Positions 1-48,424 of a stretch of 64,000 nucleotides of DNA are shown in pieces. Every line of letters starts with the position of its first letter. The first letter of the stretch is position 1. This DNA is from Sedimentisphaerales bacterium. GTDB taxonomy: Bacteria > Planctomycetota > Phycisphaerae > Sedimentisphaerales > SM23-30. The notes under the pieces are model-generated. The model was not told the origin of the DNA and searched no databases. It was given only the letters and a program-made list of their open reading frames with translations. Where the stretch lies: NCBI GenBank assembly GCA_963663965.2, contig CAXXFK010000021.1, positions 32,001 to 96,000 of the forward strand. The letters are read 5' to 3'. A program made the translations under genes and the position numbers.

Positions 1-3000
1 CTCATTATCGACCAGGGCGGGAGCCGTATATTTCAGCGCCGAAACCCGGATCCCTGCCTCATTGTAATCGTATTCGACAATCTCGAGTTCGCCGAAACCA
101 TCATTTGTGACCACCCGTTCCAGCCGATTCTGTAAATTGTACCGATAGCTCACCGATTCGCTCTCGGCGCCGCTATCGAGCGTGAGTCTGGAGATCAGCG
201 AGCCATTGTCATCATAAGCATACTGGATCACCCGCCCATTCCGGCCCCAGTCACAAGCGCTGATCTGGTCATAACTCACCGCCGCCTGACAGCTTTGCCG
301 CAGCATGGCCGGCGAGATAATAAACAGATACGCCAGGAAGACCGATATCCCGCGCGTGGCCAGACCGAAGCGGGGCTTGATTTCACAGCCTTGGCCTTTG
401 CGAACATGATAAATAATCGCCGTGATTAACACCGGCGCCAGCATCATCGCCAGTGTGATGACCAGGAGCAATTGCCAGAGGTAACGGTCCATCCGGGTGG
501 GCAATCCCATCGCGAACGCCTTAAATCCGCCAATACGGCCTTCATGCCCCGCCATGGTATAGGTGATGTCGCCATGATCATGATACGCGTAAATCCGATC
601 CTCTCCAATATCATAAGCACAAACAGGCCCCGATTGTGTTTCATATTCCAGTTGATCACGATCGTTGTATGAATAAGTCGTTGTCAATTCCTGACCGCCA
701 ACGGTTACAGTTCGACTGGAGCGATTGCCGACAAGATCGTACCCATATTCGATTTGATACTCATCACTACCGCCCAATAACGAGCTTTCATCTATCAGAC
801 GATTCAATAAATCATAACTATATGTCACAACGCGATTTTCAGTGCTGCCGTTTTGTTGGACTTGCTCGGTCACGCTATGACGAAGACCATCCGCATAATG
901 CGTATAAATAAAGCTGCTTAATACTCCGGGATTGGGATTGGTCAATGCGTCATATTTCGAGTCATAATTATGCAATCCCGTCAGGCGATGCAGGGCGTCA
1001 TAATGATAACAGGGCGAAACGGAATTGCCCAATTCCATAGATTTTCGACTGCCCGCCTCATTATAACCATAGCGGTTATTCATTGCCTTAAGATTGTCGT
1101 TAGCGCTCTCTAAGCGATTCAGGCAATCATACTCATACTGAGTATCGCTATATACGGTAGTACTGTCATCCCGCTTATGTGTCCAGGTTCGATTCTTTTG
1201 CCCCGTAATCAGGTTATAGCCATAGTTTACCACACCCTGGGGCGTTGTGATCGATTCGATCTGGCCATCGAAATCATAATCAATCTCTTCCACCACTACA
1301 GGATCTTCGCCGGCAACGGTTTTGGTTGTTTGCCATAGTCGTCCAAGGTTATCATAATCGTAATGATATTTTTCCGACCAGTTGTCTTCAGAATCATCAT
1401 AGTTCTGATTCAGATAATTGCCCTTATCGGTATCATCTTCGGCGTAATATCGCTTTTCTTCAAGCCGGCCGTCATTATTATACAAATACGCCACGGCCTG
1501 TTCTTCGTAATCGGTATGCAGCTTTAACCGATTCTGTTCATCGTACTGCCAGGATTCAAAGAGGGTGCTTCCGTGGTTCGTATTCAGTTCATTGTATATT
1601 TCATCAGCAGTATCCAATTCCTCAAATGCCTCAATGACCTCCACGTCTGAATAGTTATCTGAATACAGGAAAGGCTGATACTGGACTGTCTGCTGCTGGA
1701 ACTCATTATATTTAGATACTGTTATTCTCCAAAGCGGATCAATTTTTGCAACCTGGTTACCGTATTGATCGTAAATATAACGATAGCTCGGATGTTCAGT
1801 TCCATCGTCCGGATCGGGCAGGGTAACTTTGATTAACTGACCGGTTACCGGATCATATTCATACTGCTTCTTATCATTATTTGTAAGCGCCCCAAGAGTT
1901 TTTATTGTCGGTTCGGTTTCCCATTCCTTCCGGCCATAGACATCATATCCAACATGAATAAATGTGATGCCAATACCGTCAACACTGGGCAATTGGGTCG
2001 TGATCAGTCGGCCCTGTTCATCATAAGAATACTCGGTTCGATGCGCATATCTGTAAATAGGGCTGCCATCCGGTTCTGAAATTCCGCCATTCGCATCAAA
2101 AGAGCCAGGCTCATAAGTATATTTTCGTTGATTGCCATCATAAGCCGTCCGCGCGGTATACTCATAATCATAATCCGCCACAGCGATCGAATTCAGATCG
2201 GTATCGATGACATGCCATTTGCCCTCGAGGCGATAGTCCGTTGTATCATCCAGATTAAAGGCCTGATGATCCAGCGTCATAATCTGGCGGCCGGCCAGGT
2301 CGTAGCGATAGCCGGTGACGCGTTCGTAGCCGCCATCATCGAGTACGACCGCTCTCGATGTTCTACCGGCGCAATCATATTCGGTCCGGGAATAAGACAA
2401 CTCATTTCCCGCAACCGGCTGGACACGGGTCTGCCCATCCACCACCCACCAGGCCAACTCGGATTCACCCGCATCCTCACTCGAAGCCCAGGCGTTACCG
2501 GCGATGTAATTGGCTGGCACCCGTTTACCGGCAACCCGGCACGTCTTGTCGACAAAAGTTTCCAGGTGAATCCGCACATTGGCCCATCGACGGGTACGCT
2601 CAACCTGGCCCAATGCATCGTAGACGGTTTCAGTGGCGGTAGCAGGCTGGCCGTACTCGTGGGTATCGACCGACACTAAGGTCCGGCCTTCCACATCGTA
2701 CAAGGTTTGCGATACGGTCAAAATATTGGCAGGATCATTTAAATAGCTATCAACATCGATCCCGGACGCAGGCGCCCGGGCCGTTACGGTTTCCACTACC
2801 TGGCCCAGTTCATCATAGTAATACCGGGTGAGATTCCGGTTTTCATCGATGGTATAATCAACCTGGCCGATACAGTTATAGACCGTTTCACTAAGCGTTC
2901 GCTCACTGACCTGGGTCATATCGCTTTCATCGTAGACTAACTGCTTCGTTTGGGTGGTTCGCCCTTGCCGGTCCAGGGTCGGTTTATTTAGAATCCGTTT

Positions 3001-4950
3001 AATGACCGACGTTTCAGCCGGATCTTGCCATCTCGTCCAGCTTTCCACCTGATTGCCATTCGCATCATATTTGCTGAACTGGCGATAGACAGGCGTCTCA
3101 TTGTATCGATGAGGTTCGCTGACACTATAGGGCTGATCGAAGGAATTGCTTACATCTACATTATACCAATACGTGGTATAAATTTCATTTTCATTGGTCG
3201 GATTGTCATCGATATCCTGAATCACCTGACATATCCGGCCCTGTTCATATTCATACTCGGTCCGGGACAGGATGGCGCCGGGAATCTGCAATATCTCACT
3301 TACTGGTAATATGCCTGCGCTATTGGCAAAATACTGGGATTCCGGTTTGATCTGTGCAGTGGATCTCAAGAAGTCACGATTTTCAAGGTCCACACGATAT
3401 TCATTTACAGTTACCGATACCGGATCGTAACTGACTAACAATCCGTCACCGTTCAGGGCAGCATTTTTTCCGGATATGGAAACGTCCACGCGCCCTTTTT
3501 CATCATAAACCGTAATCGAGACATTATTGACCGGATCGATTGTCACTTCATGGTACAGTTTGGATGTGCCGGGATAGTTATAATACTCATAACGCGTTAC
3601 CGCATCAACCGGAACTTCCGGGTAATTTTCCGGATTGGGAACCTTTTGCGTCACACTGGTCGGCCGGTCCGGCTGCGCCACACTCGAATAACCATATAAG
3701 GTTTCTCGGGCAGGTGCACCCGATACGATTCGGGTTTCTGATACAACGTTGCCGCGTTCATCGTATGCGTAAATAGTTGGATTGGTTTTATCCGGGTCAC
3801 TGCGCGAATACACGGTCTCGGTTTTGCCCGAGATAGCGTGACTAAGGGTAATCTGGTTGCCTTTCGCGTCGATGGTCCCGGTCAGCCGGCCCTGGTCATC
3901 ATAAAGATAACGGATCGGTTTCAAACCGCGTGGATCGATAATATCGGTGATATAATGATCTTCCGGTGTAAACCGGGCAATCAACTGTCCATCCTCATTG
4001 CGATTTTCACCGTCATAACAATATTCAACCGTTTCCTCAGGCTCGCCGGTTTCATCCAGTTTATGAACATATTTCAGATTACCCGAACTGTCATATTCAT
4101 AACTGAGCAGCGGCGCCTGAGTATGATTGGGAGAATTAACCTTGGATATCCGATTATCTTCCCAATCGAGTGTAATCGATTTGGAGAACGATGTATTACC
4201 ATTTAAACAGGATTTAACCTCAACACAACGCGGATGCTCGCCGTCGGAATTCTCATCATAAATAAATTCAATCTTATCGCCACTGGTCATCTCGATAGAG
4301 GCCAGGAAGGGCTTGCCATATGCCTGATATTCAAACAAATCTTCTTCCTTTAAGGCATTATCATATCCCTGCACAAAATGACTGCCATAATCTTTCCGCT
4401 CAAAGTTATAAACCGTTCCATCTTGCAGGGTCAGTTTATACCCCGGGAAATCCTGAATACCAAGATTAAGTGGCGCATTGCTTATTAGAGGGATATTATA
4501 TTTATTGCCAATAGCCCAGAAATAGCCGACTCCATACATTCCACCACCATAGCATAATTTGCAGGTTATGGATGTTTCTAAAACGTCATTTACTCCATCG
4601 GGAGCCTGATAGACGACTTTCCAGTTATTAGTGCCGGGACCGCTACATGGCAACAGTGTATAGGCAAACACAACTCGTCGGCCATCCGGTAGCGTCAAGG
4701 TCACATCACGATCAAAATCTCCTCCCATGCGGCACGTCCATTTGCCATTGTCTTCGCTTTTCGTTATGCGTCGCTCATTCAGTTGCATATCCAGATTGGC
4801 AAATGAATAGCTCCAGCCATAACCAAATTCGCTATCATAATCTTTATGCAGACTGTTATAGGTCCGCGACACTCGGATAGGGACTCCTCCAATTGGAATT
4901 ACCAGATCTTCCTGGGTAAATTGCACATTACCTATCTTGAGAGAACTGCT
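1..4950 (-). repeat. Rhs/YD-repeat core of the giant protein (approximate boundary)
   Basis: Begins with KIGNVQFTQEDLVIPIGGVPIRVSRTYNS...FGYGWS, typical of the Rhs N-terminal region, followed by many YD-type repeats (QYAYDDNGSL, YRYNLQNRL). Confidence 0.85.
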
Positions 4951-7900
4951 TAATGCAATTTGCGTTTCGTCGGTATCATAATGACCGTGGCATCGGACAA
5001 CCAGTTTCAAATTATAGACACCATTCGGTACATTAGTTAAATCCAACTCGCCCAGTATACCTGTGTCATTCTCATTTCCGATACGTTGTCTTCGATACCC
5101 ATTGATTAAATATCCCGGTGTCAGATTTCGATAGAAGGTTCCATTATCATCAAAGATTTCGACCAAATATTCAATATCGCTATTGGCCGATCTATGATAC
5201 GCCTTACCCATTAAGGTAAACAGACCATCCTGAATAATAGTGGGCGGCGTTCCATCTACATGAATATTCAATAAATTATTATCACCAAACAGATCATCGT
5301 CATCATCAACTGGATTCAAATTGCTGATTTTCGCCACCGGCTTACCCAATGCTAATATAAATTTCACTGTCTCGGCTAAGGGATTTCCAGAGACATCATA
5401 CAATGTTGCAATCCAGGTGCCATCATCCTCTTCAGTCAAATCGCTCAGCCAGGCATCATCTGTAATATAGGTAGTTGCGTTCTGGTCATCCGCTTCAAAT
5501 TCATATCCATTACTAAGGACAATTTTACTCCAGGGCACTGTCATATTGAAGGTAAGTACTTGTGGGTAGTCTTCGACAACTCGGGGAGATACTGAAAACT
5601 GATTTTGTACTCCAAACTGTTTAGTCGAACTGCTTCGATTGCCGGCATTATCAATCGCTTCAAGTGTTAATGTATAACTTGACCCATTTCTTAAATGAGC
5701 CGTACTGAATTCACATGTTAAAGCATTACTGTGTTCGACACAAAGTATTTGCCCATTGCTCAATTTCAAGATCATCACTTGAATGCCGGAACCGCCATCT
5801 TCATCATGAGCATCTGCATTAACGGTTATCGATCCTGTCACTGAGTTGTCATTATCGATATTACTGGCTCTATTGTTATAGGTACCGGTAAAGCTATCGA
5901 TCGTCGGCGCCGCTTGATCTTCGCCCCGGGGAAGAACTGAAACGGTTATCGAATCTGAAATATTTGAATCCTCATTTGCAACTATCGTCATATCATAATC
6001 AGACGGTTCCTGGAATGACACGAACGGATTAATCACCGTATTGGATGGATCAAAGGCAATACCGTTAGTAATCTGCCATTGGACTTGAGTATCAGCAGGC
6101 AATACCCAGGCATCCTTGAGCCATATCTCATTTTGGGGCCATGTTACCGTTTGGTCTTCCCCGGCATTAACCAGGATTCCTTCGGTATCGGCACCTACAT
6201 ATATTACAACAGTATCAGTCGCCGTATCATCCTGACTTAAGGCAGTAAGCAAATGATCTTTTACAGATACCGTAATCTTATACAGTCCTGGCCTATTAAA
6301 GGTAATTTCAGGATTATCAGGTGCTGTCGTATCAATTGAGTATATGTCTGGCTCTGCAGTCCAGATGACTTCTAAGCCATTATCTCCAAGAACCAGAATA
6401 TCATCTTTGATGATCACATCATCTAAAGATATACTGACTTGCGCCTCGGTTAAAAGAATTGACCGGTTACGACCGGCATAAACGATCGGCAAGCTATTTT
6501 CTGGGTAAATCTCAATCACCATGAAATCAGATCCAATAAGCTGATCCTCACTGGATGGACCCTGAGTTCCCAGATCCTCATACACATTCAAGGTTACGCG
6601 ACACTTACCACTAGTTTGAATACCCTCTTCGAATGTTATGATATTTTCATTTTCTCCAGATCCGGCAGCTGCAGTGAAATCAAAATCACTTGCATACTGC
6701 CAGGCTAAATAATAACCAGAGACGCCCTGGTAAGCGATGGGAAGGTCACCAAGAATCATTGGATAAATTGAGACCGGCTCCTGACCCGCAATCCAAGTAC
6801 GATCCGGCCCAAGATCAACATATATACCTGATCGGTTAATCGTTGCGATAGCAGATGAACCGGTAATAACCGTGTTATCCTGAGAAGACAAAAGTTCAAG
6901 AGAAAAGACATATTGACCCGGATTATTAACGAGCGCTATGTAATCCACTTGATGAGTATCTGGATTGAACCGGGTTGTTATTTGAACATCATCCGGTGTT
7001 CCACTGTGATACCAATTATAATAAGTAGCTTCTTGATCTGCTCCCAATTCGGGTTGTGCGATCAATAAGATTTCTACCGGATTGTCATCAATCTGAGTCG
7101 CTACTGCTGGTTCAATTGCAGCCGTTATGGATATGGCCGGCTCCCAGGATATGCTTATAACCAGTGAGTCCATATCGATAATAGCATCGTTTTCATCCAG
7201 GGCCAGGAGATACAACGGATAGTCACCTGCGCCAGGCAAAGTAATGCTTGTATTCAAGTCACTATCATCTTCCAGCCAGATTTCTTCGGTTCCATAGTAC
7301 AGCCATTTTGTCCTGGGAGTTGTGCTCATACCCGATAACTGCACATTCAAGTTGTCTTGAAGAAGATTGAGAGAAATATCTTCGCCGGCATCAACCCAAT
7401 CCGGCGAATATAGATCCTTCGACCCGGAAATAGATACTTCCAATATGTCGATAGCTACTAACTGTGAGGTATTATCATAAGCCGATAAAGATACCTCATA
7501 AAGTCCCGGAGCTAAGCCAGACACCTTGGCCCAGGTCGATAACTGCTGTGCATTGCCAAACTCGAATAAACCATTTGGCGAGCTCCACTTAAATGTATAT
7601 TGACTGGGATCGGCTCCCAATAGCGTTCCTTTTAAATTTATATAACCCGCAGGCGCATCATTTTCTAAACTGGCGGATAACTCAATCGTGGATTCCTGAA
7701 CACAGATTTCCACATAATCCGCTCCTATCATATCACCGTAAGAATTTGTGGCTATTAATGCAATTTGATAGTCGCCGACTTTACCAAACAGAACCTCAGG
7801 ATTAAGAGTATGGTTTTCAGCTTCATACATCATAAAACCATCAGGACCACTGATCTGCTGCCAGACAATAGCATACGGCACTTCACCAGCAATGGAACCC

Positions 7901-10900
7901 TTTAATTGAGTTCCTGCCACAAAGCCCGGCGAACCCAATTGTAAGATCTGATCCATGCCGGCTTCAACCGTAACGACCGGATGATCGACTAATACGAATA
8001 CGGTATCTGAACCGACAAGTCGCAAATCACGTAAGACAGTAAATTGAAATTGATATAATCCCGGTTCAGAGAAATTCACTAATGTATTCGTTTGTGATGG
8101 ATCGTTAATATGAGCTGAGGACGGTCCTGATATGACAGACCAACTGGAAGTATAGCTGGCGTTCGCAATACCATTAATCATTCCTGATAGTTCTACATCA
8201 CCCCCTAATACAATATTTTGGTTCTTCTGATAAACCTCATCATCAATTTTGATCTGCGCTTGAATGACTTCATTTCTTGCCAGAGCAATCCAGACCGTAT
8301 CGCCGCCCACTACGCGACCGACATTATCTTTGACTTTCAACAGTAATCGATAGGTCCCCGGCAAGTCATAAGTGAATGTGACCTGGGGATTCAAAACACT
8401 TGAATTTGAAAATGCCACATTACTGCCTTCTGGCTGACTGATCACGGACCATTCATAACTGATTTCAGACATACTATTATATGGAACATCTTTGAGCTTG
8501 ACATAAGCATCATCGAACCATACCGACAGTTGATTTTGTCCAACTGGATAATCGATGATTCGACTCACGCCGGCAGATATGGTTAACGGTGAATATTCGT
8601 AGGCACCGAAATCTATGTTGGAATTACCAGACTGCTCATTATACATAATGCGAGGTTGATCATTGATATCGATATATAGATCACTTTCGACAATTTCACA
8701 ACCTCCCCTGATCGCACCTGAAGTATTTAATAAAGAATTAAATATATTTTCGTTATAGAAATTTTCATCTATGTCATCACGATTAATATTAAATCCAGCT
8801 CCATCACATCCATAATAGAGCTTTCCATCATCCCCAGGTATCAAAATATTATTAAATATTTGCGGATATCCATAAGGAAACGATGAAAAACTATTATATA
8901 TTCTATAATTACTTTCTGAAGGCGGATTTTCAATAAAAGGACTATCGATAGTATTATTCCATATCATCCCTTCGCCACATGCTTTATACAAAAACAATTG
9001 ATGATACATTCCTTCGCCATTATCTGATACAATATTACCAATAATTCGAGGGGTTCCAGCATAAGTATATCCATCAAAATCATCGTTCTCAAAACATATA
9101 CCATATCTTGAATTATCAAAGATTTGATTGCAACTGATAACTGGTCCTGATTGACCGCACGTATAAATGCCACTATGACTATTTCCATAAATAATGCAAT
9201 TCTCAATCCTGGGCGATGCCTCATTAATACAATTTATTCCACTTTTTCCACCCATAATTGATAAGCCTTTTATAGTAGAATCATTATGACTTATCTCTAT
9301 AATATTAAGACCTGCATCCGGCGAAATAATTGTTGTGTTTTGGACCTCATCCCAATTATCTGGCTGCACACTTCGAATAATCATCGAAGGGTACTCATTT
9401 GAAAGTATTATTCTTTCGTTATAATCACCGGCTCCAACGATAATTTCTTCATCATTACTGACTACTTCACTTACAGCCATTGATATTGTTTGATATTTCT
9501 TGCTTTGAGTAATATTAATAACCGTAGACTCGCCAGTATCAAGTAATTTGGGTTCCAGGTAACTTTCTAATGTTGAATTATTAGTACTACTTGTCCAGCG
9601 CCCCCAAACCCATACATTACCGAAACGGTCTTTAGCAAAACTAACCCGATTACCAGCAGATATGGAAATAACATCAGACATATCAACATTACATACTTTT
9701 ACCGGAGTAGCCTTGAATTCGTTTCCGCTACTATTACTTTCAATGCCTAATTGACCATAAGAATTATTACCCCATGACCATACATTTCCATACTTATCCA
9801 ATGCTAGGCTATGATCAATACCAGCATCGATTGAAATAATATTCTTAAGTATGTTCGACCCCTGTTCACCGTTCTCGATAAATTGTTCACCGCCATTTAC
9901 ATATATCGGTTCATAAGCCACCTCGAGTTCAGTATCGTTAGTTCCTAAAAGACAATTATTTGGATAGCAAGAATTTAAGCCCCAAGCTAACACTCGGCCA
10001 TCATATTCATTACTATCGATATCATCTAACATCTCTAAGGCCAACACATGATCCTTACCTGCAGATATTGACACGATATTCTCTAAATAATCTGAGTCAT
10101 TGTACAGTTGACTACCACGATGTACAGGTAAAGGACTCACAATATTGCTATTAATAGACCCAATACCTAACATACCGCCATAATAATGACCACATGAATA
10201 CACCTTTCCTTTACCATCTCGAATGATGCCGTCGTCAAGAAAGAAAGTTCTCCAGAAATGCGAAGTGCTGATATTTATTACATTTTGAAGCGAACTAACA
10301 TCATTAATATTCTTGGGTAAGGCTGTATTAAAATATCCATTCGAATCATCATCACAGCCTGATTCTCCATCAAAGCTGCATCCCCAAAACCAAGCGCGCC
10401 CTAACGAATCATAGGCAAATCGGCTATGAGCATTTGATGCCATACCAATAATTATAGGTTCTGTTACTATTCCAAAATCCATTTTTTGAGGTATTCTTGT
10501 ATTGCCAAGACAATTACATAAACTTATATCATAATCTGACCATCCCCATGAATACAGATTACCACTTAAATCAATCGCCATTGAGTTATAAGCGCCAGTT
10601 GATATAGCAATAATACCAGTCAAATAACTACCAGAATTTTGAACATTACTATGAACGAGTTGAAAATATGGATACCAACTCGAATCATAAGTATTATCCC
10701 AACCTAAGGCCCCTCCTTCCCCTTCCGCATTCGTGAAACGATTACAACCTATTGATTTTGTAGTATGATCGCTATTAATACATAAAGCGTGCACATCAAT
10801 GTATGTTGCATCATATGAATCACTGCATGATATATTATACGTAGATTCAACACGAACTGTAACATTATCTTCAAGGATAATATCATTAACTAATACCTTA

Positions 10901-13900
10901 AGAGCAAAAATATATATACCCGCCCGATAGTCTTGAAAGTGTACTTTTGTTTCTATAGAGTCGCTATTATCAATAGCAACCTCAGCTCCTATAGGAGCAT
11001 GCTTTAAGCTCCAGGTAATCTGTTCAACTGACTCATTAGAAGTATCGACGATCCCATATAAGTATGCAAAATTTCTAGGCAAATATGTAACTTGGTAATC
11101 TCCGGCATCAATTGAGTAAATTGGATTCTCTGAGACTATCTCGATATCCAATAAATCGTAACTGGTAAACTGGCCATCGGAAACCTCCAGACGGAATACA
11201 TAATGACCACATTTTGTGAAGTCGGCAATAGCATGCAAGATTTCTGGATCTTCAATCGTGATTGACGTTTCATCACCTCGTACCAGTGTCCAGAGATAGG
11301 TAAGCTCGGCAAGACCTTCAGGTTGATCTTCAATGGTGAGTAATGGAATGGTATCCATAGTCCCAAGATCATACTTGAGCATCTTGAATTGCTCTGCCGT
11401 AGTTTTGGTATCCAGAATAAGTTTATTGTCCGTTGGATCGGATTCTACGCCCCAATATATGCGTGGCGGAGTATTGGTTTGATCTGGCCCAACTTCAATT
11501 GATACCAGATCGAATCCGGTTTTCTCACCATCACTTGCGGTTAATTTCAGAATATAGACGCCTTCACAGGTAAATACGGCTTCAACTGCTGATGCATTGA
11601 TCTGCTCGATAGCAACGGGCAATTTATTATGTTGCTCAGCATTAAATAACACATCACCCGGTCCGCTGACTTTTTCCCAATATGCCGACAGAATCCCGAA
11701 AGGTTTGCCGTCATCCTGAATAGTCGCATTCAAAGACCAGAGATATTGCTGTTCATTACCCGTATCACCAACACTGACATTATTGATTTGAACTTTGGGA
11801 GCAGATTGCCGGTTCATATCGGGCATGATACTCACCTTAATCTGATCCGCCAATATCTCACCACGATCCGCTCCATTCAGTTTTAAAACCAGATCGGCCC
11901 GATCGAATACCTCGAAATAGGCGTCATCGATGGTAAAGGTCGCTTCGGCATCGGGCTCATCGGTTGGACATTCCACGGTAATGCCTGCCGGAGAAAAGAT
12001 CGTCTCCCAGTTCCAGCTAAGCGCATTACTGCCGGTTACCTTCGCCCCGGATAACAGGGTTTGCAGTTCAGGCAGGGTAATCACCTTATTTTTTCCCGCT
12101 TCCAGAGTAAACGGCGGGATAACTTCTACAGTTACCTCGGCGCTGCCGGTGGCTCCCCGACTATCCATGACAAAAAGTTTAACCGTATGGCTCCCCAGGG
12201 CCAACCTCAGCTCGATAGAGGAACCGGTTCCGTCCGGATAGGGTTGATCGTTACCATCGGTCCAGAGATAGGACTGTATACTGTCTTGAAGGTCAACATC
12301 GCTGGATTCGCTGGTAAATGTGACTAGCGCAGTACCATCCTGATCATCATCGACCATAACCGTATTGTCCACATGAATTACTGCCTGAGGCGGGGTATTC
12401 ACAATAATAGCCACCGTATCAAACCCTGCGGCATGATAACCATCAGACACAACCAGCGTATAGGTATAGCTCCCGGCCGCTAAGGTCAATGATACCTGAT
12501 CATTCTGTCCGATCACGTTCCCGTTTTCATCCTGCCATTCGTAGGATAACTCTCCATTTTCAGGATCCAGGGAACCACTGCCATCCAGACTGACTTCTGC
12601 GGATACCCCATCAGTGATATGAACGATCTGATCCTCACCCGCATCGGCAACCGGCGGCCGGTTAATGACCACGGTGATCTCCGCCGGCCCCGAGGATGCA
12701 TCGGCCTGATCCGTCACCGTCAATCCAATCACATGCTCACCCCAGCCACAATTCAATGTTAATGTCTGGCCCGTTTCCCCGGCCAGCAACTGGCCATTAC
12801 AGGTCCAGATATACTCAATCACATCCCCGTCATCCGGATCACTCGATTGACTGCCGTCAAAAACAACCGCCACGCCTTCAATGTCATCCATATCGTGAAT
12901 CACTGTCGTATCATTGACCACAAAAAATTCCGGCGAAGCAATCGACAGACTCGCCACCGGAGAGTGATTCGTAACCACACAAATCTCATCCGCCCCAATA
13001 TCGGGAATCCCATTGATTACCCGACTATCTCCATCAATATCAACATGCCCCATGAAAGCCGCCGCTACCCCGGCATCTTTGCAAGGCGAACCTTCTTGTA
13101 GATGCCAGTTCGGTATTAATGAACTTGGAAGTACTTTACCCCAATTCCGGATAAATGTACGCATTCCCTTATACATAGATACATCATCATCAATACCATC
13201 AATACCTTCAATTTCTCTATAGTTTGCTTGAGGGCAACCTGTAACTTGATAAAGCATTCCATTTCCATTGAATTCAATATAATCACCAATTTCAAAATAG
13301 CTAGGGATTCTAAATAAAATCCAATTGTCATTAGCAGGTTGTCCTGTTCTTGGTAAATGATCACATAATAGATAGGGATTAACAAATTGAGGATCAATAC
13401 TGAAATTGTTTTCTGCATGAAAGTGATAATCCACATTCCAATCATCAGCATCCTGTTCGAAATTAGATTCATAGTTTATCCCGGGCCATAATGAAGCAGT
13501 CGGCAAAAAATAGCACAAGTTATTCATAAACCAGATATTTTGAGATGCAGACGAATTTTTAAAAGCGATATTACTTTCCCTTAATCCACAATTACATAAA
13601 AAATTCTTACTAATAATGCTGTTATTAATATATAAATATTTAAAATCATTGTCAGGACCTGATCCATGTTGCAGATATTTCATGCCTTGCCCTGCACTAT
13701 CAGACAAACAAATATTTCGGGCAATCGTACAATTAATTACTCTTGATCTCATATCTATATTACTATCACCGCCTATATATATAGCTAGTCCGGCATTATT
13801 TTCATAGGCAATATTGCCAGTTATTACGCTATTCGTAATTGTTCCCGAAATAACTGCCCCCCCACCATACCAGGCACAATTGTTTTCAATAACACACCTA

Positions 13901-16900
13901 TCTACAACTACTTTTTGCATAATACTGTAAATTCCCCCTCCGGTTGATGCAACATCTTCTCTAAAAATATTATGCGTTATTAAACAATCCTGAATTAATC
14001 CGGACATCTGAAAGATGCCGCCCCCTAGATACTCAATATCACTAAAATCTCTAACATCACATGGATTATTTCTGATTATACAATTTAAAATTGTTGCCTT
14101 TGAATAGTTACTCGAGCCAGCCTGGTTATAATATTCTGGTGCATCTGCCAATGCTCTTGAATTAATGCCACCACCCCGCACTTGATTAAGTCTACTATTT
14201 ATATATCTGGCTGTGCCACCTCCTCCCGTTATCGTAAATCCAGCTAAAACTGTATTTTGACTTTCAAAACCTCCAAATGTTATAACACTACCTATTTCAT
14301 AACCAATAACAGGTTCTCCATTATTGTTCATTGATTCATTAATACGACTAATATTACCATCCATAGTTCGACCAGTTATAATAGTGTTCATTAAAGCACT
14401 TTCATTTTCCAGATATTCGCTTCTTACGGTAATATCCTTTACATATTCACTATATGGTCGATAGTCTCCTTCAGAACCATAATCTGGATCAAAACTTACC
14501 CAACGATCGATTATATTATCACCTATATTAGTATTACAAGGTTTGTAGTTAAAAAATAATAATTCATAATAAGTCCCCGGTTTGACAATAATGACATCAC
14601 CATCCCTGGCCATCTTTATAGCATGCCCGATGGTCAGGAAAGGTTCGGTTGCTGAACCAGAATTTTCGTCATTCCCAATCCCATTTGATAAACCATCCCC
14701 ATCCGTATCACCGCCATCAACATAATAAGTATCACAAATTTTTTCATCTGCACCAATATCAGCACGATACGTTTCTAAACCTAAACTATCAAAAGTTCTC
14801 TCGTTGCCATCAATATCTACCGTACTATTGACCGCCTGACTCCCTTTTTCAATACATGGCGAATCCGGCCTCAAATGATAGCCATCCGCCTTAAACGAGG
14901 GAGGATTGTCAATGTTAAAATTGGCCTCACCATCAAACGGGACCAGAATATCATCGGTATATTTATCCTGAATACAGGAGTAGCTGATCGTATAATTCTG
15001 ACTCGTTCCGAACTGAACATCGATCGCTTGATCATCATCAGTAATAATTGCGGTCTGCCCATTAAATGAACTCGACAAACCATTCTCCCAGATGATCGTA
15101 TTCAAAATCGCCATATTCGTTTCGGAATCTGCGCAACACAGCGCGGCGCCGCTGTCATTTCCATCAATCACCGCCGGATTACTCGTCGCTCGGTTTTTGA
15201 TAATAGTGCAGTTTTCAATCGTAATTTCAGATGCTTCAGACGCATAAATACCCCCTCCCTGCTGTATGGCAACATTGTCCTTGATAACACAATTTTGAAG
15301 AGTAACCTGGCTGCCGGCGCCATAAACGCCGGCGCCGCAAGCCTGCGATTGATTATTCGTGATAAAACACTGTGCGATGGCCGGCATTCCTTCATAACAG
15401 AAAATCCCGCCGCCTCCGGTATCGGCTTGATTGTCATGAATCAAACAATGCGAAATCGTCGGACTACTCCCATAACAGAATATCCCACCTCCCTGGAGTT
15501 GATACATATTCGATATTGCATCCACTCCCAGCGCATGACCATATATCCGGATATCATCGATCATGCCATCGAATGCCCGGCCGCCATCGATACAATCTCC
15601 GGCCGTAATCGCAAGGGAGGAATCGGTCAAACGCGCACCCGATAAGGCGCTCTGTTGATTATATCCGGTCTCGACGCCATCGACATAAAGCCGGACCATC
15701 CGTTCCGTGGCATCATCGTAGGTCATCACCAGATGATACCAGCGTCCGGCCACTGGATAAAAATCGGTCTCTACCAATGACCAGGCCTGACTGCCATTGA
15801 CAAAACCGAGTAACCGTTTCGGCTCCGATGAGGTTGGACTCCATAACTGGATACTCCAGGGATGGTTGTTATTATCTCCGATATTCCGTTGACAGATCAA
15901 ATGGGAATTGATGGTATCCGAAATCGTATCAGCCCGGAACCACAACGATACGGTAAACGCACTCATGCCATCCATAATGCCTGTACCACAATTGAGGTGG
16001 TCATTCACCCCATCCAATTGCACTGCCGGCCCCTGAATGAGGTTCTCTTCAGACTGCCAGCTGGCGCCATTGACACAATTGGCTGTCAACCCGCCTATTG
16101 CGTCGACCGTTGTAGTACCACTGGCTTCGTTCAATTCCCAATTAACAACAAGATCATTCAGACCACCGTTTTTTTGCCGCGCTTGTCTTATGATTTCAAC
16201 CGCAGGTAATATGGATCGATAAAGCTTGACCTCATCTAAATAACCCATAAAGGACCGGCCGCCGCCGGCACGATTTCCTATCGTAACAGGAATAGTGCTA
16301 TCGGTGACCATCAGACCAGGTGCCGTATCCTGCGTTAAATAAGTAGCCTCCGTACCGTTTGAATACAAATAGACCTTGCGATCCCCGGCTTCATCATAGG
16401 TCATCGTCACATGATACCACTGACCGGCTTGCGGAATGAAGTCTGATTGCCCAACGACGACCACATTACCACCAGAACCATCATCAGTACACACCGCGCC
16501 ACTTAACCGATACCCCATACTGCTATTTAAGTAGAGCGACCAGCGAATCGCACTGGTATTACGTTGCGAAACCAGATGTGGATAACTCTGCAGAAAGGTA
16601 TTTTCCGTAGCCTTAAACCAGCAGGAGACACTGAATGTCCGTAAATCGGTTAAATCCGCTGGATATCCACAATCCACATAATCATCCATGTTATCAAATT
16701 CTGCCGCACCACCACCTAAATGATAATTTTCAGAAACCTGGCTGATAACGGCCCCAGACAAGGTAGCGTCGTGATCCCCCTCATTATCTTGACCATCGAC
16801 ATCCAAAGGCCAATGAGAAATGCCTAATGAAGCCAATTGTGCAATTTCAGAGTCAGATATCTGACGATGAAATAGTTTCACCTCATCCAGACACCCCTTG

Positions 16901-18180: not shown

Positions 18181-18257
18181 CAGAAACACTCCTTAAAGCC
18201 TTTATTTCAATTGAATCCTTATTACCTTTACACTAATTATAACCGACAGAATTTTTG

Positions 18258-20663
18258 TTACTGACTATTTAACCATTGAGAAGCGGTATGGGCTATTTGA
18301 GTATCAGGATAATCCCGAACAATTTGTTCATATAATGCCCGTATACGCAGTTGAACTTCGACTTGGTTCAGCCGTTTTTGGTTGCTGAGTTGCTGATAAC
18401 ACATCGCCAGAGTATAACAGACACTGCCACAATGCTCATCGGCTGGCCAGTCATTCAGGAGCCTTTGATAATAGTACACGGCCAAAGTATAGTTATTAAG
18501 CAGTCGGTAGCTATCACCCAGATATAGCAATATCTCAGCGCTCCTTCTGGATGGCGGCAACTCATTTAATATCCGATTGAACACGCCAATTGCCTTGAGC
18601 AGATAGGGTTTTCGCCCAGTGCGTTGTCTGGGTTCTCCCAGGCTCCCTCGTTCATAATAATCTTCTCCCACCCGCAATGCTGCCAACTCCAGATCCGGAT
18701 GTTTTCGGTATTCAGTAAATATCTCCTCAACAGGATCGACGGCCAGATCGATCATCTGGCCCGCATTGAAATCACAGGCTAAATCCGACAGGGCTGCCAT
18801 GCCACTTAGAGCTCGAATCCGGTCATCCGAATCAGGATGTCTATCCAGAACCCACTGATACCACTGGGCCGCTTGGCTATAACGCCCCGCCTGCTTACAA
18901 TGTTGGGCACACTCGTTGACAACTCCAACAGCCATTGCCTGACCATCTAACGCCGCAATCAGGGAATCTAACTGGTTAGATACTTCGTTGGGATCTCCAG
19001 TATAAATAGTGGCGATCGCTAATCCTTTATGCAAATCAGCATTCATTCCTAATGATGGAACTTCCAAAAAATAACGATAGATCTCACTAGCTTGCTTATA
19101 TTGCTTATTTTTCAGGTAAACACACCCGATCGAATCTATTGCCTGAGCCAGACGTGGATGCTGTTGATATTGTTCAATGAGACTAGCAAATGAATCAAAA
19201 CTAGTCGACTCTTTTTGATAGAGCTCGGTTATTATCAGCCCGGCCTCTGCCAGAATCACCTGATCACTCCCAGGATAATTATTTCGTATTCCCTCATATA
19301 AAGACCTGGCCTCTTGATAATATCCGGCAACGTTATAATAATCCGCAATCTCACGTACTGTTTCTGGGCATATGCCCAAGCCGGCTCCTGTCTCCTGGAT
19401 TGTATGCACCAGAGCCATGGCGCTATTGGGATCAGACTCCTGAATCTCCAGCCAGGCCAGGTCCTTACGTGCCAGCATACCATTGTTATCATTGGGATAC
19501 ATAGCAATAATGGCTTGATAAAGTCGTCTGGCTTTCGAATATTCCTTTGTTTGATGCAGCAATGATTGACCTACCTGCTTACGTATAGAAGCCATATCCG
19601 AAATCAATATTGGCAATCCTTCGATCAGGTAATCTAATTGTTCTTCAGTCAATAATTCCAGGGCCTGTGTTTTATTCATCTCCGCCCACTTTACGACCGC
19701 CTGATAGCCCGCTTTCACAGCCGGTTGGTCTTGCAGGATACGACTGATTAAATTATTGGCGGATTGATATTGATCTACGGCCTGATAGTCACCGGCCAAT
19801 TCGAGCAGGACCGGATAGAACTCAGCCGGACTGCCGGCATCTTGGATTAATATCCGTTCAACATAACTCCGTGCTGATTCAAAATCCCCCTGTTGTATCC
19901 GGGAATAAGCCATCCCCTGATCGGCATAGAGAGGTTGACTGCCGGCAGGCCAGATATCTAATTGCTTATATAATGTTTCAGCCTGTGCAAATTCTCCTTG
20001 AATCACCCATTGGCGGGCAAGAGTACGAACATAAGGCACTGATTCTTCATGTGATGGATATCTCTGCCTTAAAACTTCTGCTACCTGAAACGCCGCCTCA
20101 GATTGTCCTGTTGCCAGTTGAATTTCACCTGCTTGGACGTACAGTTTGGCAATATCCGGGTGACTGGCCAAACCATGCAAACCGGCTTGACATACCTTCA
20201 AAGCCCATGCCATATCTTTAGCCTGACGGGCAGTTTTTACCAATTCAACCACCTGAGCCACAACAGCATCATAACTGGAGTAGCGAGACAATATTGATGT
20301 AAGCCAGGCTTGAGATCTCGATTGGTTGCCCTTTTCCCAAGCCAGTTGGCAAAGCTTCTGACAGGCAATCAATGCTTGATTTGTTTCAGGATACTGGATA
20401 ATAACCTGGTATAGCTGATCTGCCGCCTCAAATTCCTGGCCAGAAGACAGTAATTGTAATCCTTGCTCTAATTCAGAAATAGCCAGAGCAATCGGATCAC
20501 TGGATTTCTCCAAAGTTTCCTGCTGAGATAATTCAGTTAGAGTCGTAACCGCATCCTGGGCTCCCCCGATGCGATTTATTCCGAATAGCATAATTCCTAA
20601 AGCAATAAGAATTATTACCAGATCCGTATCTGCTTTACCATGCCGCCAGATAAACTTCACCAT
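18258..20663 (-). CDS. Large tetratricopeptide-repeat (TPR) protein with N-terminal signal/anchor
   Basis: Many TPR-like units (e.g. ILLYLGDSYRLLNNYTLAVYYYQRLLNDWP) and a hydrophobic N-terminal segment. The ATG at 20663 has an AGGAG RBS; the ORF-track start at 20690 lacks one. Confidence 0.88.
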   Translation of the reverse strand: MVKFIWRHGKADTDLVIILIALGIMLFGINRIGGAQDAVTTLTELSQQETLEKSSDPIALAISELEQGLQLLSSGQEFEAADQLYQVIIQYPETNQALIACQKLCQLAWEKGNQSRSQAWLTSILSRYSSYDAVVAQVVELVKTARQAKDMAWALKVCQAGLHGLASHPDIAKLYVQAGEIQLATGQSEAAFQVAEVLRQRYPSHEESVPYVRTLARQWVIQGEFAQAETLYKQLDIWPAGSQPLYADQGMAYSRIQQGDFESARSYVERILIQDAGSPAEFYPVLLELAGDYQAVDQYQSANNLISRILQDQPAVKAGYQAVVKWAEMNKTQALELLTEEQLDYLIEGLPILISDMASIRKQVGQSLLHQTKEYSKARRLYQAIIAMYPNDNNGMLARKDLAWLEIQESDPNSAMALVHTIQETGAGLGICPETVREIADYYNVAGYYQEARSLYEGIRNNYPGSDQVILAEAGLIITELYQKESTSFDSFASLIEQYQQHPRLAQAIDSIGCVYLKNKQYKQASEIYRYFLEVPSLGMNADLHKGLAIATIYTGDPNEVSNQLDSLIAALDGQAMAVGVVNECAQHCKQAGRYSQAAQWYQWVLDRHPDSDDRIRALSGMAALSDLACDFNAGQMIDLAVDPVEEIFTEYRKHPDLELAALRVGEDYYERGSLGEPRQRTGRKPYLLKAIGVFNRILNELPPSRRSAEILLYLGDSYRLLNNYTLAVYYYQRLLNDWPADEHCGSVCYTLAMCYQQLSNQKRLNQVEVQLRIRALYEQIVRDYPDTQIAHTASQWLNSQ

Positions 20664-20755
20664 CTGCTTTACTCCTAATGATAGGCCCATTGATTATTTA
20701 ATATAATATCGGTCTATTATATATTTATATATAATCTACCTTACTAGTATATGCC

Positions 20756-27607: not shown

Positions 27608-29245
27608 TTACCGGCGGGCTTGCTGGTTTTTATTGAACTGCACCAACATATACTTCAGACGGCTATTGGGAATCGTCTCACGGGTATGACTGTTCCGATC
27701 CCCACTGTGTTCCAGACTCCAGCCATTCCATTCCCGATAGGCATGATAACACCAGTCCCATTGGTTCTGCTCAAAGATACCCACTGCATCTTGCAACCAG
27801 TTCAAACTGCTATCGCCCGGCGCCCAGCGGATCGCGCTGAATTCTCCAACATAAATATGAACATTAAAATCATGTTGAAATTCAAAAACTGGCATTAATT
27901 CATCCCGGAGTTTGTCCCGATTCCATAAAGTTCCGTTTATTTTACCTGGATATTCGATTCCGCCGGGATTAGTACCTATCGTCTGATGCGTAAATTGATG
28001 AGGCAAGTACATATGAAAACTGTATATGATGCCCTCCATCTCCAATGGCTTTAAGGCAGCAAATCCAGCAGGCCCACCCCACGGGCTCGGTTCAAAAACC
28101 AGGGGTTTACCTGGATCAATCTGACGAATCCTGCGACCGGCTTCCGTTGCCAGTGACCGCCAGTCCATCAGACCCGGCGCCACCGTTCCTTCTACGGCTT
28201 CGTTGAGTAAATCATACGCGTAAACACTGGGATTTCCTTTGTAACGCCGGGCAATCCGTTCCCAAAGCGACAGAAAATAATCCTGATACCGCTTGTCCTG
28301 AAACAGATCACACACGCCACCGGCCCGACGCCCCCCCGGCGGACAATGGAGATCCACCAGCACCAGAAAACCATACTTTCCTGCAGCCCCCAAAGCCTTG
28401 TCACATTCTGTCAATGCGGTTTCGATCCACTGGTCATACCTTTCCAAATCTCGCGACCATTCCTCCGCCTGTTTCATCGGCGCCCAGTTAAGCTGCCAGC
28501 GGATATGATTCACACGCCACCCGGCCAGATCTCGAAAATTTTCTTCCTGAAAATTGGGGCCATGCATTACCCCCCTTAACCGATCAAGATCATGACCAGT
28601 AAATGGATTATCATATCGACGACCGTTCCTGGGCGGACGGCCCAGAGTAATTGTTACCTCATCAAACCAGACAGTACCACTGACCTCCTCCAATCCCAAT
28701 ATTAACGTTGCTTCCCTGAGGCCCAGCGGTAATCGAATCAGTTGCTCAAATTTACGCCAATCCCATGTCCCGGAAGGGATGGGCAACTGAGGATATGTCA
28801 CCCCATCTTCTGTTTTTAATACCAGCATTACTTTAATACCATTCCAGGAGTTAGGCCCTTCACTGACATCCTGCGCCTTTACTCTTGCCGATAAGGCAAC
28901 ATACCGATCGGTAATTTCAGCAACTGGCAACTTGATTTGACGGCTAGACGAACCTTTTTCCTGACAAATAATTTGAAGGGCTCCATCAACGATCTTGCCG
29001 GGTTGTTGGGTATTTTCAATGATGTCAAATGTATTACTATACAGCGCCGGTTGGGCTGCTAAAACCATCTCAGAAAAAGAAGTCACATAGAGAATAATGA
29101 CCACTAACCAATTACAAAGATTGCCGAAATTTACAGGCCAACTGATAACACCTGCGGTCTTTGTCATTTTCAGTCGGCCTGACGGCCTTATGCCCATTCG
29201 AATGGTTTGAATAGGTGCTGATTTTTTATTGAAACAAAACATCAT
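27608..29245 (-). CDS. Glycoside hydrolase family 5-like protein with N-terminal CBM-like domain (start uncertain)
   Basis: VLVDLH, AYDLLNE (acid/base), YSFHMY, IYVGEFS (nucleophile) motifs. Confidence 0.85.
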   Translation of the reverse strand: MMFCFNKKSAPIQTIRMGIRPSGRLKMTKTAGVISWPVNFGNLCNWLVVIILYVTSFSEMVLAAQPALYSNTFDIIENTQQPGKIVDGALQIICQEKGSSSRQIKLPVAEITDRYVALSARVKAQDVSEGPNSWNGIKVMLVLKTEDGVTYPQLPIPSGTWDWRKFEQLIRLPLGLREATLILGLEEVSGTVWFDEVTITLGRPPRNGRRYDNPFTGHDLDRLRGVMHGPNFQEENFRDLAGWRVNHIRWQLNWAPMKQAEEWSRDLERYDQWIETALTECDKALGAAGKYGFLVLVDLHCPPGGRRAGGVCDLFQDKRYQDYFLSLWERIARRYKGNPSVYAYDLLNEAVEGTVAPGLMDWRSLATEAGRRIRQIDPGKPLVFEPSPWGGPAGFAALKPLEMEGIIYSFHMYLPHQFTHQTIGTNPGGIEYPGKINGTLWNRDKLRDELMPVFEFQHDFNVHIYVGEFSAIRWAPGDSSLNWLQDAVGIFEQNQWDWCYHAYREWNGWSLEHSGDRNSHTRETIPNSRLKYMLVQFNKNQQARR

Positions 29246-48344: not shown

Positions 48345-48424
48345 GGCCTCCACAAGAATGAATTCGTCGATCAATTGGGTCTGGACATTAGATAATATAA
48401 CCACATTCTAACGGGTATGTCTTT

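What the first reader, a model, noticed from the sequence alone, without database searches (positions are those of the whole stretch)
241..620. Two-helix transmembrane 'staple' inserted inside the Rhs/YD core
Seen: between two ordinary YD repeats (YSYNDRDQL... and ...QYAYDDNGSL) sits an insert of about 120 aa. It has TM1 LWQLLLVITLAMMLAPVLITAIIY (480-409), a basic loop HVRKGQGCEIKPRFGLATR and TM2 GISVFLAYLFIISPAML (351-301), followed by RQSCQA/A. Established: Rhs/teneurin YD shells are continuous beta-sheets, and the Rhs TM segments I know of lie N-terminal to the core, not inside it. Inference: TM1 acts as a stop-transfer, the basic loop stays cytoplasmic, and TM2 plus CQA acts as an internal, possibly signal-peptidase-cleaved signal that re-exports the rest of the shell and its cargo. 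This would tether a Sec-exported Rhs cage to the membrane, a mechanism I do not recognise as described.
Basis: partly seen in the sequence, partly recalled or inferred. Interest (0 to 1): 0.88.

Follow-up and report, generated by a model that had tools for sequence, protein, structure and literature searches.

The report
Membrane hairpin inside an Rhs shell
A giant secreted Rhs toxin protein of a sediment planctomycete carries a conserved pair of membrane-type helices in the middle of its toxin-holding shell, a feature not found described elsewhere that probably pins the shell to the cell membrane.

Summary
The reading frame at window 241-620 (minus strand) belongs to a 6481-aa Rhs gene that runs off the window. 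Between two YD repeats lies a module of about 136 aa (window 226-633). It has a short soluble lead-in ending in a conserved GLPS motif, a 24-aa hydrophobic helix, a 19-aa basic loop, a second helix with a 14-aa hydrophobic core ending in proline, and an A-x-A-type motif. It is not an artefact. A profile of the module finds 180 protein clusters in 1.84 billion representatives. It occurs in 28 of 301 genomes of the same order, against 2 of 401 in a phylum-wide sample. No Pfam or NCBIfam model covers it, and four full-text literature searches found no description.

The charge pattern across 53 modules fits a Sec-inserted hairpin with a cytoplasmic loop (loop K+R 5.3 against D+E 1.0; after helix 2, 0.66 against 3.0). 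AlphaFold models two long helices between beta strands. Signal-peptidase cleavage is open.

Two findings complicate it. The hairpin is facultative: some main genes lack it while their orphan cassettes carry it. Nearly every cargo also opens with a membrane-grade helix, which the same logic would stop in the membrane. New variant of a known kind; interest 0.64.

The parts
1..18189 (-). Window part (residues 1-6063) of a 6481-aa giant Rhs gene; the last 418 residues lie outside the window (G000:C21:30744-32000). Domains: signal-peptide-like start, PKD, 3x LamG_3, beta-helix/DUF1565, RCC1-like propeller, K319L-like PKD, DUF6531, RHS repeats.
18094..18189 (-). N-terminal signal-peptide-like region (residues 1-32; basic start, hydrophobic core, IMA/S).
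   Evidence: hydropathy; sequence. Complete homologues P0102, P0045 and P0153 also start with signal-peptide-like sequences. No dedicated predictor was run.
649..675 (-). Last ordinary YD repeat before the insert (YSYNDRDQL, residues 5839-5847).
481..633 (-). Lead-in of the module (residues ~5853-5903): short beta strands, a small helix, and the conserved I-G...A-F-x-x-G-L-P-S-x-W motif (P5897 in 53 of 53).
   Evidence: insert boundary; conservation; secondary structure
409..480 (-). Helix 1 (TM1), residues 5904-5927. Median length 23 aa in 53 modules; P5919 conserved in 51 of 53.
352..408 (-). Basic loop, residues 5928-5946. Median 19 aa; mean K+R 5.3 against D+E 1.0.
301..351 (-). Helix 2 (TM2), residues 5947-5963. 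The core from G/C to the proline is exactly 14 aa with no indels in 53 modules. L5952, A5953, Y5954, L5957 and P5960 are conserved.
283..300 (-). RQSCQA, the A-x-A-type motif. The proposed signal-peptidase site lies between A5969 and A5970 (window 283|282).
   Evidence: -3: A39 S11 C1; -1: A37 G12 T2 of 53. Cleavage itself was not tested.
226..282 (-). Return segment AVSYDQISACDWGRNGRVI (residues 5970-5988) with Y5973 (51 of 53) and W5981 (53 of 53); acidic overall.
196..225 (-). First YD repeat after the insert (QYAYDDNGSL, residues 5989-5998). The shell tail then runs for about 250 aa to the Rhs core, outside the window.
   Evidence: TIGR03696 at residues ~6159-6241
18258..20690 (-). 810-aa TPR protein with an N-terminal hydrophobic segment, directly upstream in the same direction. 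A TPR gene lies directly upstream of the giant gene in G025 and G007 too.

Best explanation
The insert is a conserved, lineage-restricted membrane hairpin module carried by the exchangeable C-terminal cassettes of Sec-exported giant Rhs toxins of one planctomycete order. Homologous clusters are named Sedimentisphaerales. Proposed mechanism, all of it inferred: the N-terminal signal peptide starts export of about 5900 residues. Helix 1 then halts transfer and enters the cytoplasmic membrane. The basic 19-aa loop stays in the cytoplasm. Helix 2 re-opens the translocon like an internal signal, so the remaining ~270 aa of shell are exported and close the YD cage on the periplasmic side. Both ends of the insert therefore meet again at the membrane surface, and the cage is stapled to the cytoplasmic membrane through a loop between two YD hairpins. 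Whether signal peptidase I then cuts after the A-x-A-type motif, leaving a two-chain shell, is open (my estimate is 0.35). What the tether is for (retention, ordered folding next to the translocon, or staged release) is not known.
For: Shown:
- The two helices are two of only four hydrophobic stretches in 6481 aa.
- The protein and three complete homologues start with signal-peptide-like sequences.
- No T6SS sheath or PAAR gene was found in the 94.6%-complete genome.
- The module is conserved in architecture but not in sequence (23-36% identity in A1). In 53 full modules, helix 1 has a median of 23 aa and the helix 2 core is exactly 14 aa. The loop carries K+R 5.3 against D+E 1.0, while the 28 aa after helix 2 carry 0.66 against 3.0.
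- Small residues hold -3 and -1 of the putative site. These lie two residues apart, a spacing that fits a strand bound by a peptidase rather than one face of a helix (inference).
- AlphaFold2 on a 65-row alignment (mean pLDDT 80.1, pTM 0.68) gives helices 5899-5930 and 5943-5975 (pLDDT about 73-86, loop 59) between strands 5874-5879 and 5986-5992. The model is an Rhs shell by Foldseek (best E 1.9e-40).
- An insert-less homologue joins the same two YD repeats with 9 residues, so the two ends of the module must lie close together.
- Established knowledge (recalled): hydrophobic segments of this length followed by basic residues act as stop-transfer sequences in SecYEG, and basic loops are retained in the cytoplasm (the positive-inside rule).
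Against: - No dedicated topology or signal-peptide predictor was available and there is no experiment. All topology is inferred from hydropathy and charge.
- The cargo begins with another membrane-grade helix within 60 aa of the DPxG motif in 47 of 60 homologues, often followed by K/R. This also holds in 4 of 5 hairpin-less cassettes (a sample biased towards hairpin loci). If those helices are exported and packed into the cage, helix 1 might be too. If they are not, the toxin would stay in the producer's cytoplasm.
- The 19 residues before helix 1 are also mildly basic (K+R 2.1).
- The helix 2 core is short (14 aa), has a conserved Arg at its start, and is more conserved than helix 1. Helix 1 carries one or two conserved prolines. 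A passive anchor need not be so specific.
- The hairpin is dispensable. The main genes of G008, G025 and G458 lack it, and only 28 of 301 genomes have it although 150 of 301 have related Rhs tails.
- How a cage tied to the inner membrane of a diderm would reach a target is unexplained.
- For cleavage: the proline-to-site distance is long, and AlphaFold keeps the site helical.
Confidence: 0.5

Rival explanations
1. Shielded hydrophobic device for the target cell. The hairpin passes the producer's membrane, is buried in or on the cage, and later inserts into the victim's membrane, alone or with the cargo's first helix, to help the toxin cross.
For: Hydrophobic helices hidden inside Rhs/YD cages are documented for mosquito SGS1 (passages read), and a pore-forming Rhs cargo for Tse5 (abstract in the listing). 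T6SS Rhs effectors use transmembrane domains for target entry (abstract in the listing). Nearly every cargo here opens with a hydrophobic helix (47 of 60), so membrane-active parts seem to be a theme of this clade. Helix 2 and the prolines of helix 1 are more conserved than an anchor needs.
Against: A 19-aa loop with about five K/R would have to cross the target bilayer for a hairpin to insert from outside. The protein is Sec-exported as an unfolded chain, and nothing is known that would keep a 24-aa segment of peak hydropathy 2.72 out of the lateral gate. The known cases are folded in the cytoplasm or by eukaryotic routes, and their helices lie N- or C-terminal to the shell, not within it.
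Confidence: 0.2
2. Split-shell system. The hairpin marks the border of a separately working C-terminal subunit. After cleavage, or by separate expression of cassettes in which helix 2 serves as an N-terminal signal peptide, the shell tail plus toxin joins the anchored N-terminal part in trans, as TcC joins TcB.
For: The module sits at the 5' edge of a distinct compositional block: GC 0.52-0.60 for residues ~5860-6220, against 0.39-0.47 upstream and 0.28-0.39 in the toxin. Many cassettes begin at the GLPS motif (8 representatives of 500-615 aa) or just before helix 2. 12 of 50 genomic matches start at profile position 57 or later. Two-chain YD shells exist (TcB-TcC entries among the fold matches).
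Against: The window genome's own helix-2-first cassette has no start codon before the hydrophobic core (first start is a GTG inside it; a stop lies just upstream). Start points of the other orphans are scattered, as expected of recombination remnants. At least one 'Met' start is a gene caller's reading of a truncated copy (P0108 against P0123). No expression data are available.
Confidence: 0.1
3. Excisable staple. The hairpin anchors the protein only during assembly and is then cut out, by signal peptidase after helix 2 and by an intramembrane or juxtamembrane protease at helix 1, releasing a soluble two-chain cage for onward secretion.
For: The A-x-A-type motif after helix 2. Helix-breaking prolines in helix 1 (P5919 in 51 of 53; a second proline in 38 of 53), which are typical of intramembrane protease substrates (recalled). 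An invariant GLPS motif just before helix 1. Release would solve the problem of how a tethered cage leaves the cell.
Against: No protease gene was seen next to the locus. Nothing ties the GLPS motif to proteolysis. It is entirely inferential.
Confidence: 0.08
4. Artefact: a misassembly, a frameshift, or a chance hydrophobic stretch.
For: In the only runs that hold the stretch (X1 and X2, one sample, probably the source of the assembly), contigs break inside the insert because a near-identical fragment lies 16 kb downstream. Window 311-347 and 462-551 are covered only by variant contigs.
Against: Exact contigs join each YD flank to its side of the insert (1-310 and 552-1500), with no joints or indels. 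The same module sits in frame in long ORFs of other genomes: G007 6498 aa, G455 5886, G503 4865, G516 2468. It occurs in 180 clusters. The other frames are closed.
Confidence: 0.02

Closest known systems
Sec-exported Rhs/WapA-type polymorphic toxins with orphan cassettes
   Same: N-terminal signal peptide, adhesin-like domains, YD shell, Rhs-associated core with a DPxG motif, variable C-terminal toxin, immunity gene, and downstream orphan cassettes. Description of the class is from Zhang et al. 2012, PMC3482391 (passages), and recall.
   Different: No internal membrane hairpin is described for them. Here the cassette unit also includes about 270 aa of shell tail and the hairpin.
T6SS prePAAR/Rhs effectors with transmembrane domains (e.g. 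RhsA)
   Same: Rhs cage plus hydrophobic helices in one protein. Fold match to RhsA 7q97.
   Different: Their helices are N-terminal to the cage and go with PAAR, Eag chaperones and a T6SS (abstract in the listing; PAAR-TM note in PMC3482391). Here no PAAR or sheath gene was found, the protein has a signal peptide, and the helices lie inside the YD region.
Mosquito SGS1 and Tse5: hydrophobic helices as cargo inside the cage
   Same: Predicted membrane helices directly after the Rhs core, as in the cargo here (SGS1 passages; fold match 8fjp).
   Different: Those helices follow the autoproteolysis site. The hairpin here lies about 270 aa before it, between YD repeats, and has a basic connecting loop.
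Tc toxin TcB-TcC cocoon
   Same: A YD shell that tolerates being built from two chains and carrying an inserted domain (fold matches 4o9x, 6h6g, 4igl; the propeller insertion is recalled).
   Different: The split there is between genes. There are no membrane helices, and delivery goes through TcA, which was not looked for here.
Teneurins and bacterial teneurin-like proteins
   Same: A YD shell tethered to a membrane (fold matches).
   Different: The tether is an N-terminal single helix in animals, and lipoprotein, S-layer or wall-binding domains in bacteria (PMC13018210 passages). It is never inside the shell.
CdiA secretion arrest (recalled, not searched)
   Same: A giant filamentous toxin whose export pauses with the toxin end held back in the producer.
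   Different: CdiA pauses at the outer-membrane transporter, not by membrane helices in the Sec pathway, and it has no YD cage.

Membership tests
Rhs/YD-repeat polymorphic toxin | YD (RHS) repeats forming a shell | tested here: met
   PF05593 E 7e-13 and 6.7e-19; the AlphaFold model matches Rhs cages at E 1.9e-40
Rhs/YD-repeat polymorphic toxin | Rhs-associated core domain ending in the DPxG autoproteolysis motif | tested here: met
   TIGR03696 E 2.1e-18 at residues ~6159-6241; DPSGH is present in the sequence. Proteolysis itself is not testable here.
Rhs/YD-repeat polymorphic toxin | Variable C-terminal toxin with immunity gene and orphan cassettes | tested here: met
   Low-GC 241-aa tail with no family match; a small ORF directly downstream; four orphan fragments downstream. 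Homologues carry Tse3-like muramidase and AHH nuclease tips. The immunity function is inferred.
T6SS prePAAR Rhs effector | PAAR domain and a T6SS in the genome | tested here: not met
   PF05488 and PF05943 not found in G000, 94.6% complete
T6SS prePAAR Rhs effector | Transmembrane helices N-terminal to the cage | tested here: not met
   The only N-terminal hydrophobic stretch is the signal region; the hairpin is at 5904-5963 of 6481
Sec signal peptide / signal peptidase I substrate (helix 2) | Basic n-region, hydrophobic h-region of 7-15 residues, small residues at -3 and -1 | tested here: met
   Basic loop; 14-aa core; -3 A39/S11/C1 and -1 A37/G12/T2 of 53. The rule itself is recalled.
Sec signal peptide / signal peptidase I substrate (helix 2) | Short c-region (about 3-7 residues) in extended form; actual cleavage | tested here: inconclusive
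   9-10 residues from the proline to the site, against 5-7 in the N-terminal signal peptides of these proteins by eye. AlphaFold models the site as helix. SignalP is not available.
Integral membrane helical hairpin (positive-inside topology) | Two segments long and hydrophobic enough to span a bilayer, joined by a loop richer in K/R than the outer flanks | tested here: met
   Peak hydropathy 2.72 and 1.69; loop K+R 5.3 against 2.1 before and 0.66 after. Helix 2 is marginal on its own.
Tc toxin BC cocoon | Separate TcB and TcC chains, propeller gate, TcA partner | not tested
   Only fold similarity of the shell was seen; no search for TcA was made

The most novel reading that the evidence does not exclude
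The hairpin and the hydrophobic helix that opens nearly every cargo together make the C-terminal cassette a three-span membrane protein. The last 270 aa of the cage form a periplasmic loop between helix 2 and the cargo helix, and the toxin domain is parked in the producer's cytoplasm beside its immunity protein. This would be a programmed arrest of Sec translocation, the inner-membrane counterpart of CdiA's secretion arrest, to be released by cleavage or by force when the 5000-aa outer part engages a target.
Probability: 0.1. Interest if true: 0.9.

Novelty: new variant of a known kind. Interest (0 to 1): 0.64.

Why it matters
Rhs, Tc and teneurin cages are treated as closed soluble containers whose membrane contacts, if any, lie outside the shell sequence. 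A conserved membrane hairpin threaded through the shell would show three things. The cage tolerates a membrane tether, or even a chain break, at a defined seam. Giant Sec-exported toxins of planctomycetes are assembled at the membrane. And polymorphic-toxin cassettes can exchange part of the container and its anchoring device as well as the toxin. It also raises a clear, testable question in membrane-protein biogenesis: how is a beta-sheet cage closed around a cargo when three hydrophobic helices pass the translocon on the way? The module is short, has fixed landmarks (GLPS, P5919, P5960, A-x-A, Y, W), and can be tested by ordinary topology fusions in a laboratory host.

Tried and rejected
- Frameshift or misreading: rejected, the other frames are closed.
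- Misassembly: the look-up of sequencing runs listed 3 runs of one study. Two, from one sample, hold the stretch and are probably the source, and no RNA holder is listed. Laid contigs break inside the insert at the paralogous fragment, show no joints or indels, and give no independent support.
- The search for related loci with alignment A1 failed for lack of a conserved stretch. With the single protein it found only one weak locus, at 29% identity, in a Thermodesulfobacteriota MAG. That locus was not followed.
- Protein Atlas gave only generic Rhs clusters.
- Earlier findings of this scan: nothing by place, sequence or words.
- A link between the hairpin and the cargo helix: rejected. Hairpin-plus cassettes have the cargo helix in 19 of 19 cases and hairpin-less ones in 4 of 5. 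This used the 24 of 48 cassettes with at least 330 aa upstream; the sample is biased towards hairpin loci.
- Independent expression of the window genome's helix-2-first orphan: no start codon before the hydrophobic core.
- Cargo identity: no Pfam, NCBIfam or PDB sequence match. One call failed on wrong coordinates and was not repeated.
- A first regular expression for the core motif was too strict and found nothing; it was corrected.
- Whether the helices point out of or into the cage could not be read, because model coordinates are not exposed.
Full report
WHAT IS THERE. Window 1-18189 (minus strand) is one open frame that runs off the window. In the genome it is C21:30744-50189 and encodes 6481 aa. 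From the N-terminus it has a signal-peptide-like start, PKD domains, three LamG_3 domains, beta-helix regions, an RCC1-like propeller, more PKD domains, DUF6531 and RHS repeats. Outside the window follow an Rhs-associated core domain (TIGR03696, E 2.1e-18) ending in DPSGH, and a 241-aa low-GC tail with no family or PDB sequence match. No T6SS sheath or PAAR gene was found in the genome, which is 94.6% complete. It is therefore a giant, apparently Sec-exported Rhs polymorphic toxin. Downstream lie a small ORF, presumably the immunity gene, and four orphan cassette fragments separated by ORFs that look like transposases and a reverse transcriptase (those names are my reading of the translations and were not scanned).

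In protein numbering, helix 1 is 5904-5927, the loop is 5928-5946, helix 2 is 5947-5963, and the RQSCQA|A motif ends at 5969|5970. A 19-residue hydropathy scan of the whole protein finds only four stretches above 1.6: the N-terminus, these two helices, and one directly after DPSGH. The other frames are closed. Comparison with an insert-less relative fixes the insert at about 136 aa, residues ~5853-5988, window 226-633. That relative is the 6337-aa main gene of G025, which reads ...NTNDQLLKETSDPAGTNILVQYQYDDNGSL....

IT IS A CONSERVED MODULE.
- A 300-aa query across the insert matched 13 of 41 related genomes. The matches run through the insert in G008, G025, G022 and G007.
- A 138-aa query of the insert hit 13 ORFs in the fetched loci.
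- An 11-row alignment (A1) has 23-36% identity to the window copy.
- Its profile found 180 proteins at E<=1e-3, 103 at E<=1e-10 and 8 at E<=1e-30 among 1.84 billion cluster representatives.
- In whole genomes the module is in 28 of 301 genomes of the order (21 of 126 genera; families f1 4/24, f2 1/3, f6 9/70, f7 13/167, f4 0/26).
- In a phylum-wide sample it is in 2 of 401 genomes, both from the window's own family.
- Related Rhs tails are far commoner, at 150 of 301 genomes.
- Named homologous clusters are 'Sedimentisphaerales bacterium' or 'RHS repeat-associated protein'.
- No Pfam or NCBIfam model covers the module.

ANATOMY ACROSS 53 FULL MODULES. The set is the 52 full-length hits among the 150 listed, plus the window copy.
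- Lead-in: a short YAY...G..Y stretch, then I-G-x3-A-F-x2-G-L-P-S-x-W (P5897 in 53 of 53).
- Helix 1: median 23 aa, P5919 in 51 of 53, and a second proline six residues earlier in 38 of 53.
- Basic cluster and loop: median 19 aa, K+R 5.3, D+E 1.0.
- L-x-L-x-x-R, then a helix 2 core of exactly 14 aa with no indels, ending in P5960 (52 of 53).
- Then x2-[FL]-x2-[LV]-[AS]-x-[AG]-x3-Y (Y5973 in 51 of 53) and W5981 (53 of 53).
- The 28 aa after helix 2 carry K+R 0.66 and D+E 3.0. The 19 aa before helix 1 carry K+R 2.1 and D+E 0.4.
- Helix 2 is more conserved than helix 1.

STRUCTURE. AlphaFold2 on residues 5050-6249 with a 65-row alignment gave mean pLDDT 80.1 and pTM 0.68. It models a small helix at 5888-5893, long helices at 5899-5930 and 5943-5975 (block pLDDT about 73-86; loop 59), and beta strands on both sides. 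Foldseek places the model with Rhs, Tc and teneurin cages (best E 1.9e-40; TM-scores of 0.2-0.46 because the shell is truncated). Helix 2 is modelled as continuing through the A-x-A-type motif. I could not see coordinates, so whether the hairpin points away from the cage or into it is not known.

THE MODULE BELONGS TO THE CASSETTE AND IS FACULTATIVE.
- The main genes of G025, G008 (7392-aa ORF; no hit although its tail matches) and G458 (5745-aa ORF) lack it, while orphans downstream of them carry it.
- The main or long ORFs of G000, G007, G455, G503 and G516 carry it.
- In the window gene the module starts a block of raised GC (0.52-0.60, GC3 0.57-0.75, residues ~5860-6220), set between 0.39-0.47 upstream and 0.28-0.39 in the toxin.
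- Many database proteins begin at the GLPS methionine or just before helix 2. 12 of 50 genomic matches start at profile position 57 or later.
- The window genome's own helix-2-first orphan has no start codon before the hydrophobic core. I therefore read these as recombination remnants, not as proven separate genes.

HOW IT MOST LIKELY WORKS. The proteins start with signal peptides, so the chain meets SecYEG unfolded. A 24-aa segment with peak hydropathy 2.72, followed by a cluster of K/R, is a textbook stop-transfer. A short basic loop followed by a second hydrophobic segment with an acidic far side is a textbook re-initiation hairpin (established rules, recalled). This puts both YD flanks back on the periplasmic side, close together, which is what a 136-aa insert between two adjacent YD hairpins requires. 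I put this at about 0.5.

Cleavage after helix 2 is supported by the conserved small residues at -3 and -1. Their i/i+2 spacing suits a bound strand rather than one face of a helix (inference). Against it are the long proline-to-site distance, the continuous helix in the model and the lack of any predictor or experiment. I put cleavage at about 0.35.

WHAT DOES NOT FIT.
- First, 47 of 60 cargos start with a membrane-grade helix within 60 aa of DPxG, and 53 of 60 have at least one. Many are followed by K/R. The trait is not tied to the hairpin: 19 of 19 hairpin-plus and 4 of 5 hairpin-less cassettes have it, in a biased sample. Either these helices are pulled through and packed into the cage, which weakens the stop-transfer argument for helix 1, or they also stop. 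In that case the toxin stays in the producer's cytoplasm and the shell tail is a periplasmic loop of a three-span protein.
- Second, a passive anchor would not need the conserved prolines and the conserved face of helix 2.
- Third, nothing explains how a cage tied to the inner membrane reaches a target.

These points keep three rivals alive: a shielded target-membrane device (0.2), a split-shell system (0.1) and an excisable staple (0.08).

COMPARISON WITH WHAT IS KNOWN. In T6SS Rhs effectors the membrane helices are N-terminal and go with PAAR (listing abstract; PMC3482391 passage). In SGS1 they follow the core and lie inside the cage (PMC9935623 passages). Teneurins and bacterial teneurin-like proteins are tethered from the N-terminal side, and their 'TIP' insertion lies before the shell (PMC13018210 passages). 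Four full-text searches and term look-ups in PMC3482391 turned up no internal hairpin in a YD shell. Subscription papers and supplements were not seen. I file it as an Rhs polymorphic toxin (membership features met) with a new accessory module: a new variant of a known kind.

ASSEMBLY CHECK. Only one sample's runs hold the stretch, and it is probably the source. Contigs break at the paralogous fragment, and exact contigs link each YD flank to its side of the insert. This gives no independent support, but the family-wide evidence makes an artefact very unlikely.

Noticed in passing
G000:C21:30747-31469 (outside the window) and homologues P0002-P0153: Nearly every cargo of this Rhs clade opens, directly after the DPxG autoproteolysis motif, with a membrane-grade hydrophobic helix (47 of 60; 53 of 60 have at least one; up to 4). 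It is often followed by a K/R cluster. Hairpin-less cassettes have it too (4 of 5).
   Followed up: partly
window 18258-20690 (-): An 810-aa TPR protein with an N-terminal hydrophobic segment lies directly upstream of the giant gene. A TPR gene matching it (22-26% identity, best E 2.9e-25 in G025 and 6.5e-8 in G007) lies directly upstream of the giant gene in G025 (C17:30015-31583) and G007 (C48:68834-69856). It may be a dedicated partner or chaperone.
   Followed up: partly
L013 (G008:C4), L014 (G025:C17), L077 (G458:C15): In three genomes the expressed-looking main Rhs gene lacks the hairpin while the orphan cassettes downstream carry it, so recombination could switch the tether on or off.
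   Followed up: partly
window 1-650 and G000:C21:30744-32000: The gene's 3' end is a three-block GC mosaic: shell 0.39-0.47, hairpin plus shell tail 0.52-0.60, toxin 0.28-0.39. The first boundary falls at the start of the insert.
   Followed up: yes
L020 (G000:C21:12001-31000): The orphan array is broken up by ORFs that look like IS66-, IS256- and IS3-type transposases and a group II intron-type reverse transcriptase (my reading of the translations, not scanned). One 121-150-aa fragment is a near copy (86% identity) of the hairpin alone.
   Followed up: no
P0068, P0002: Cassettes with the hairpin carry toxins aimed at different compartments: a Tse3-like muramidase/SLT domain (cell wall) and an AHH nuclease (cytoplasm).
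   Followed up: no
window 27608-37522: The surroundings are typical of a polysaccharide degrader: GH5 cellulase, an 1830-aa alpha-L-rhamnosidase with LamG, a FecR/NPCBM protein, and a prepilin-type N-methyl protein at 47487-48404.
   Followed up: no
P0014: One hairpin cassette cluster is named by its source as from 'Coxiella sp. DG_40' (a MAG), at odds with the planctomycete names of the others. This may be a binning oddity.
   Followed up: no
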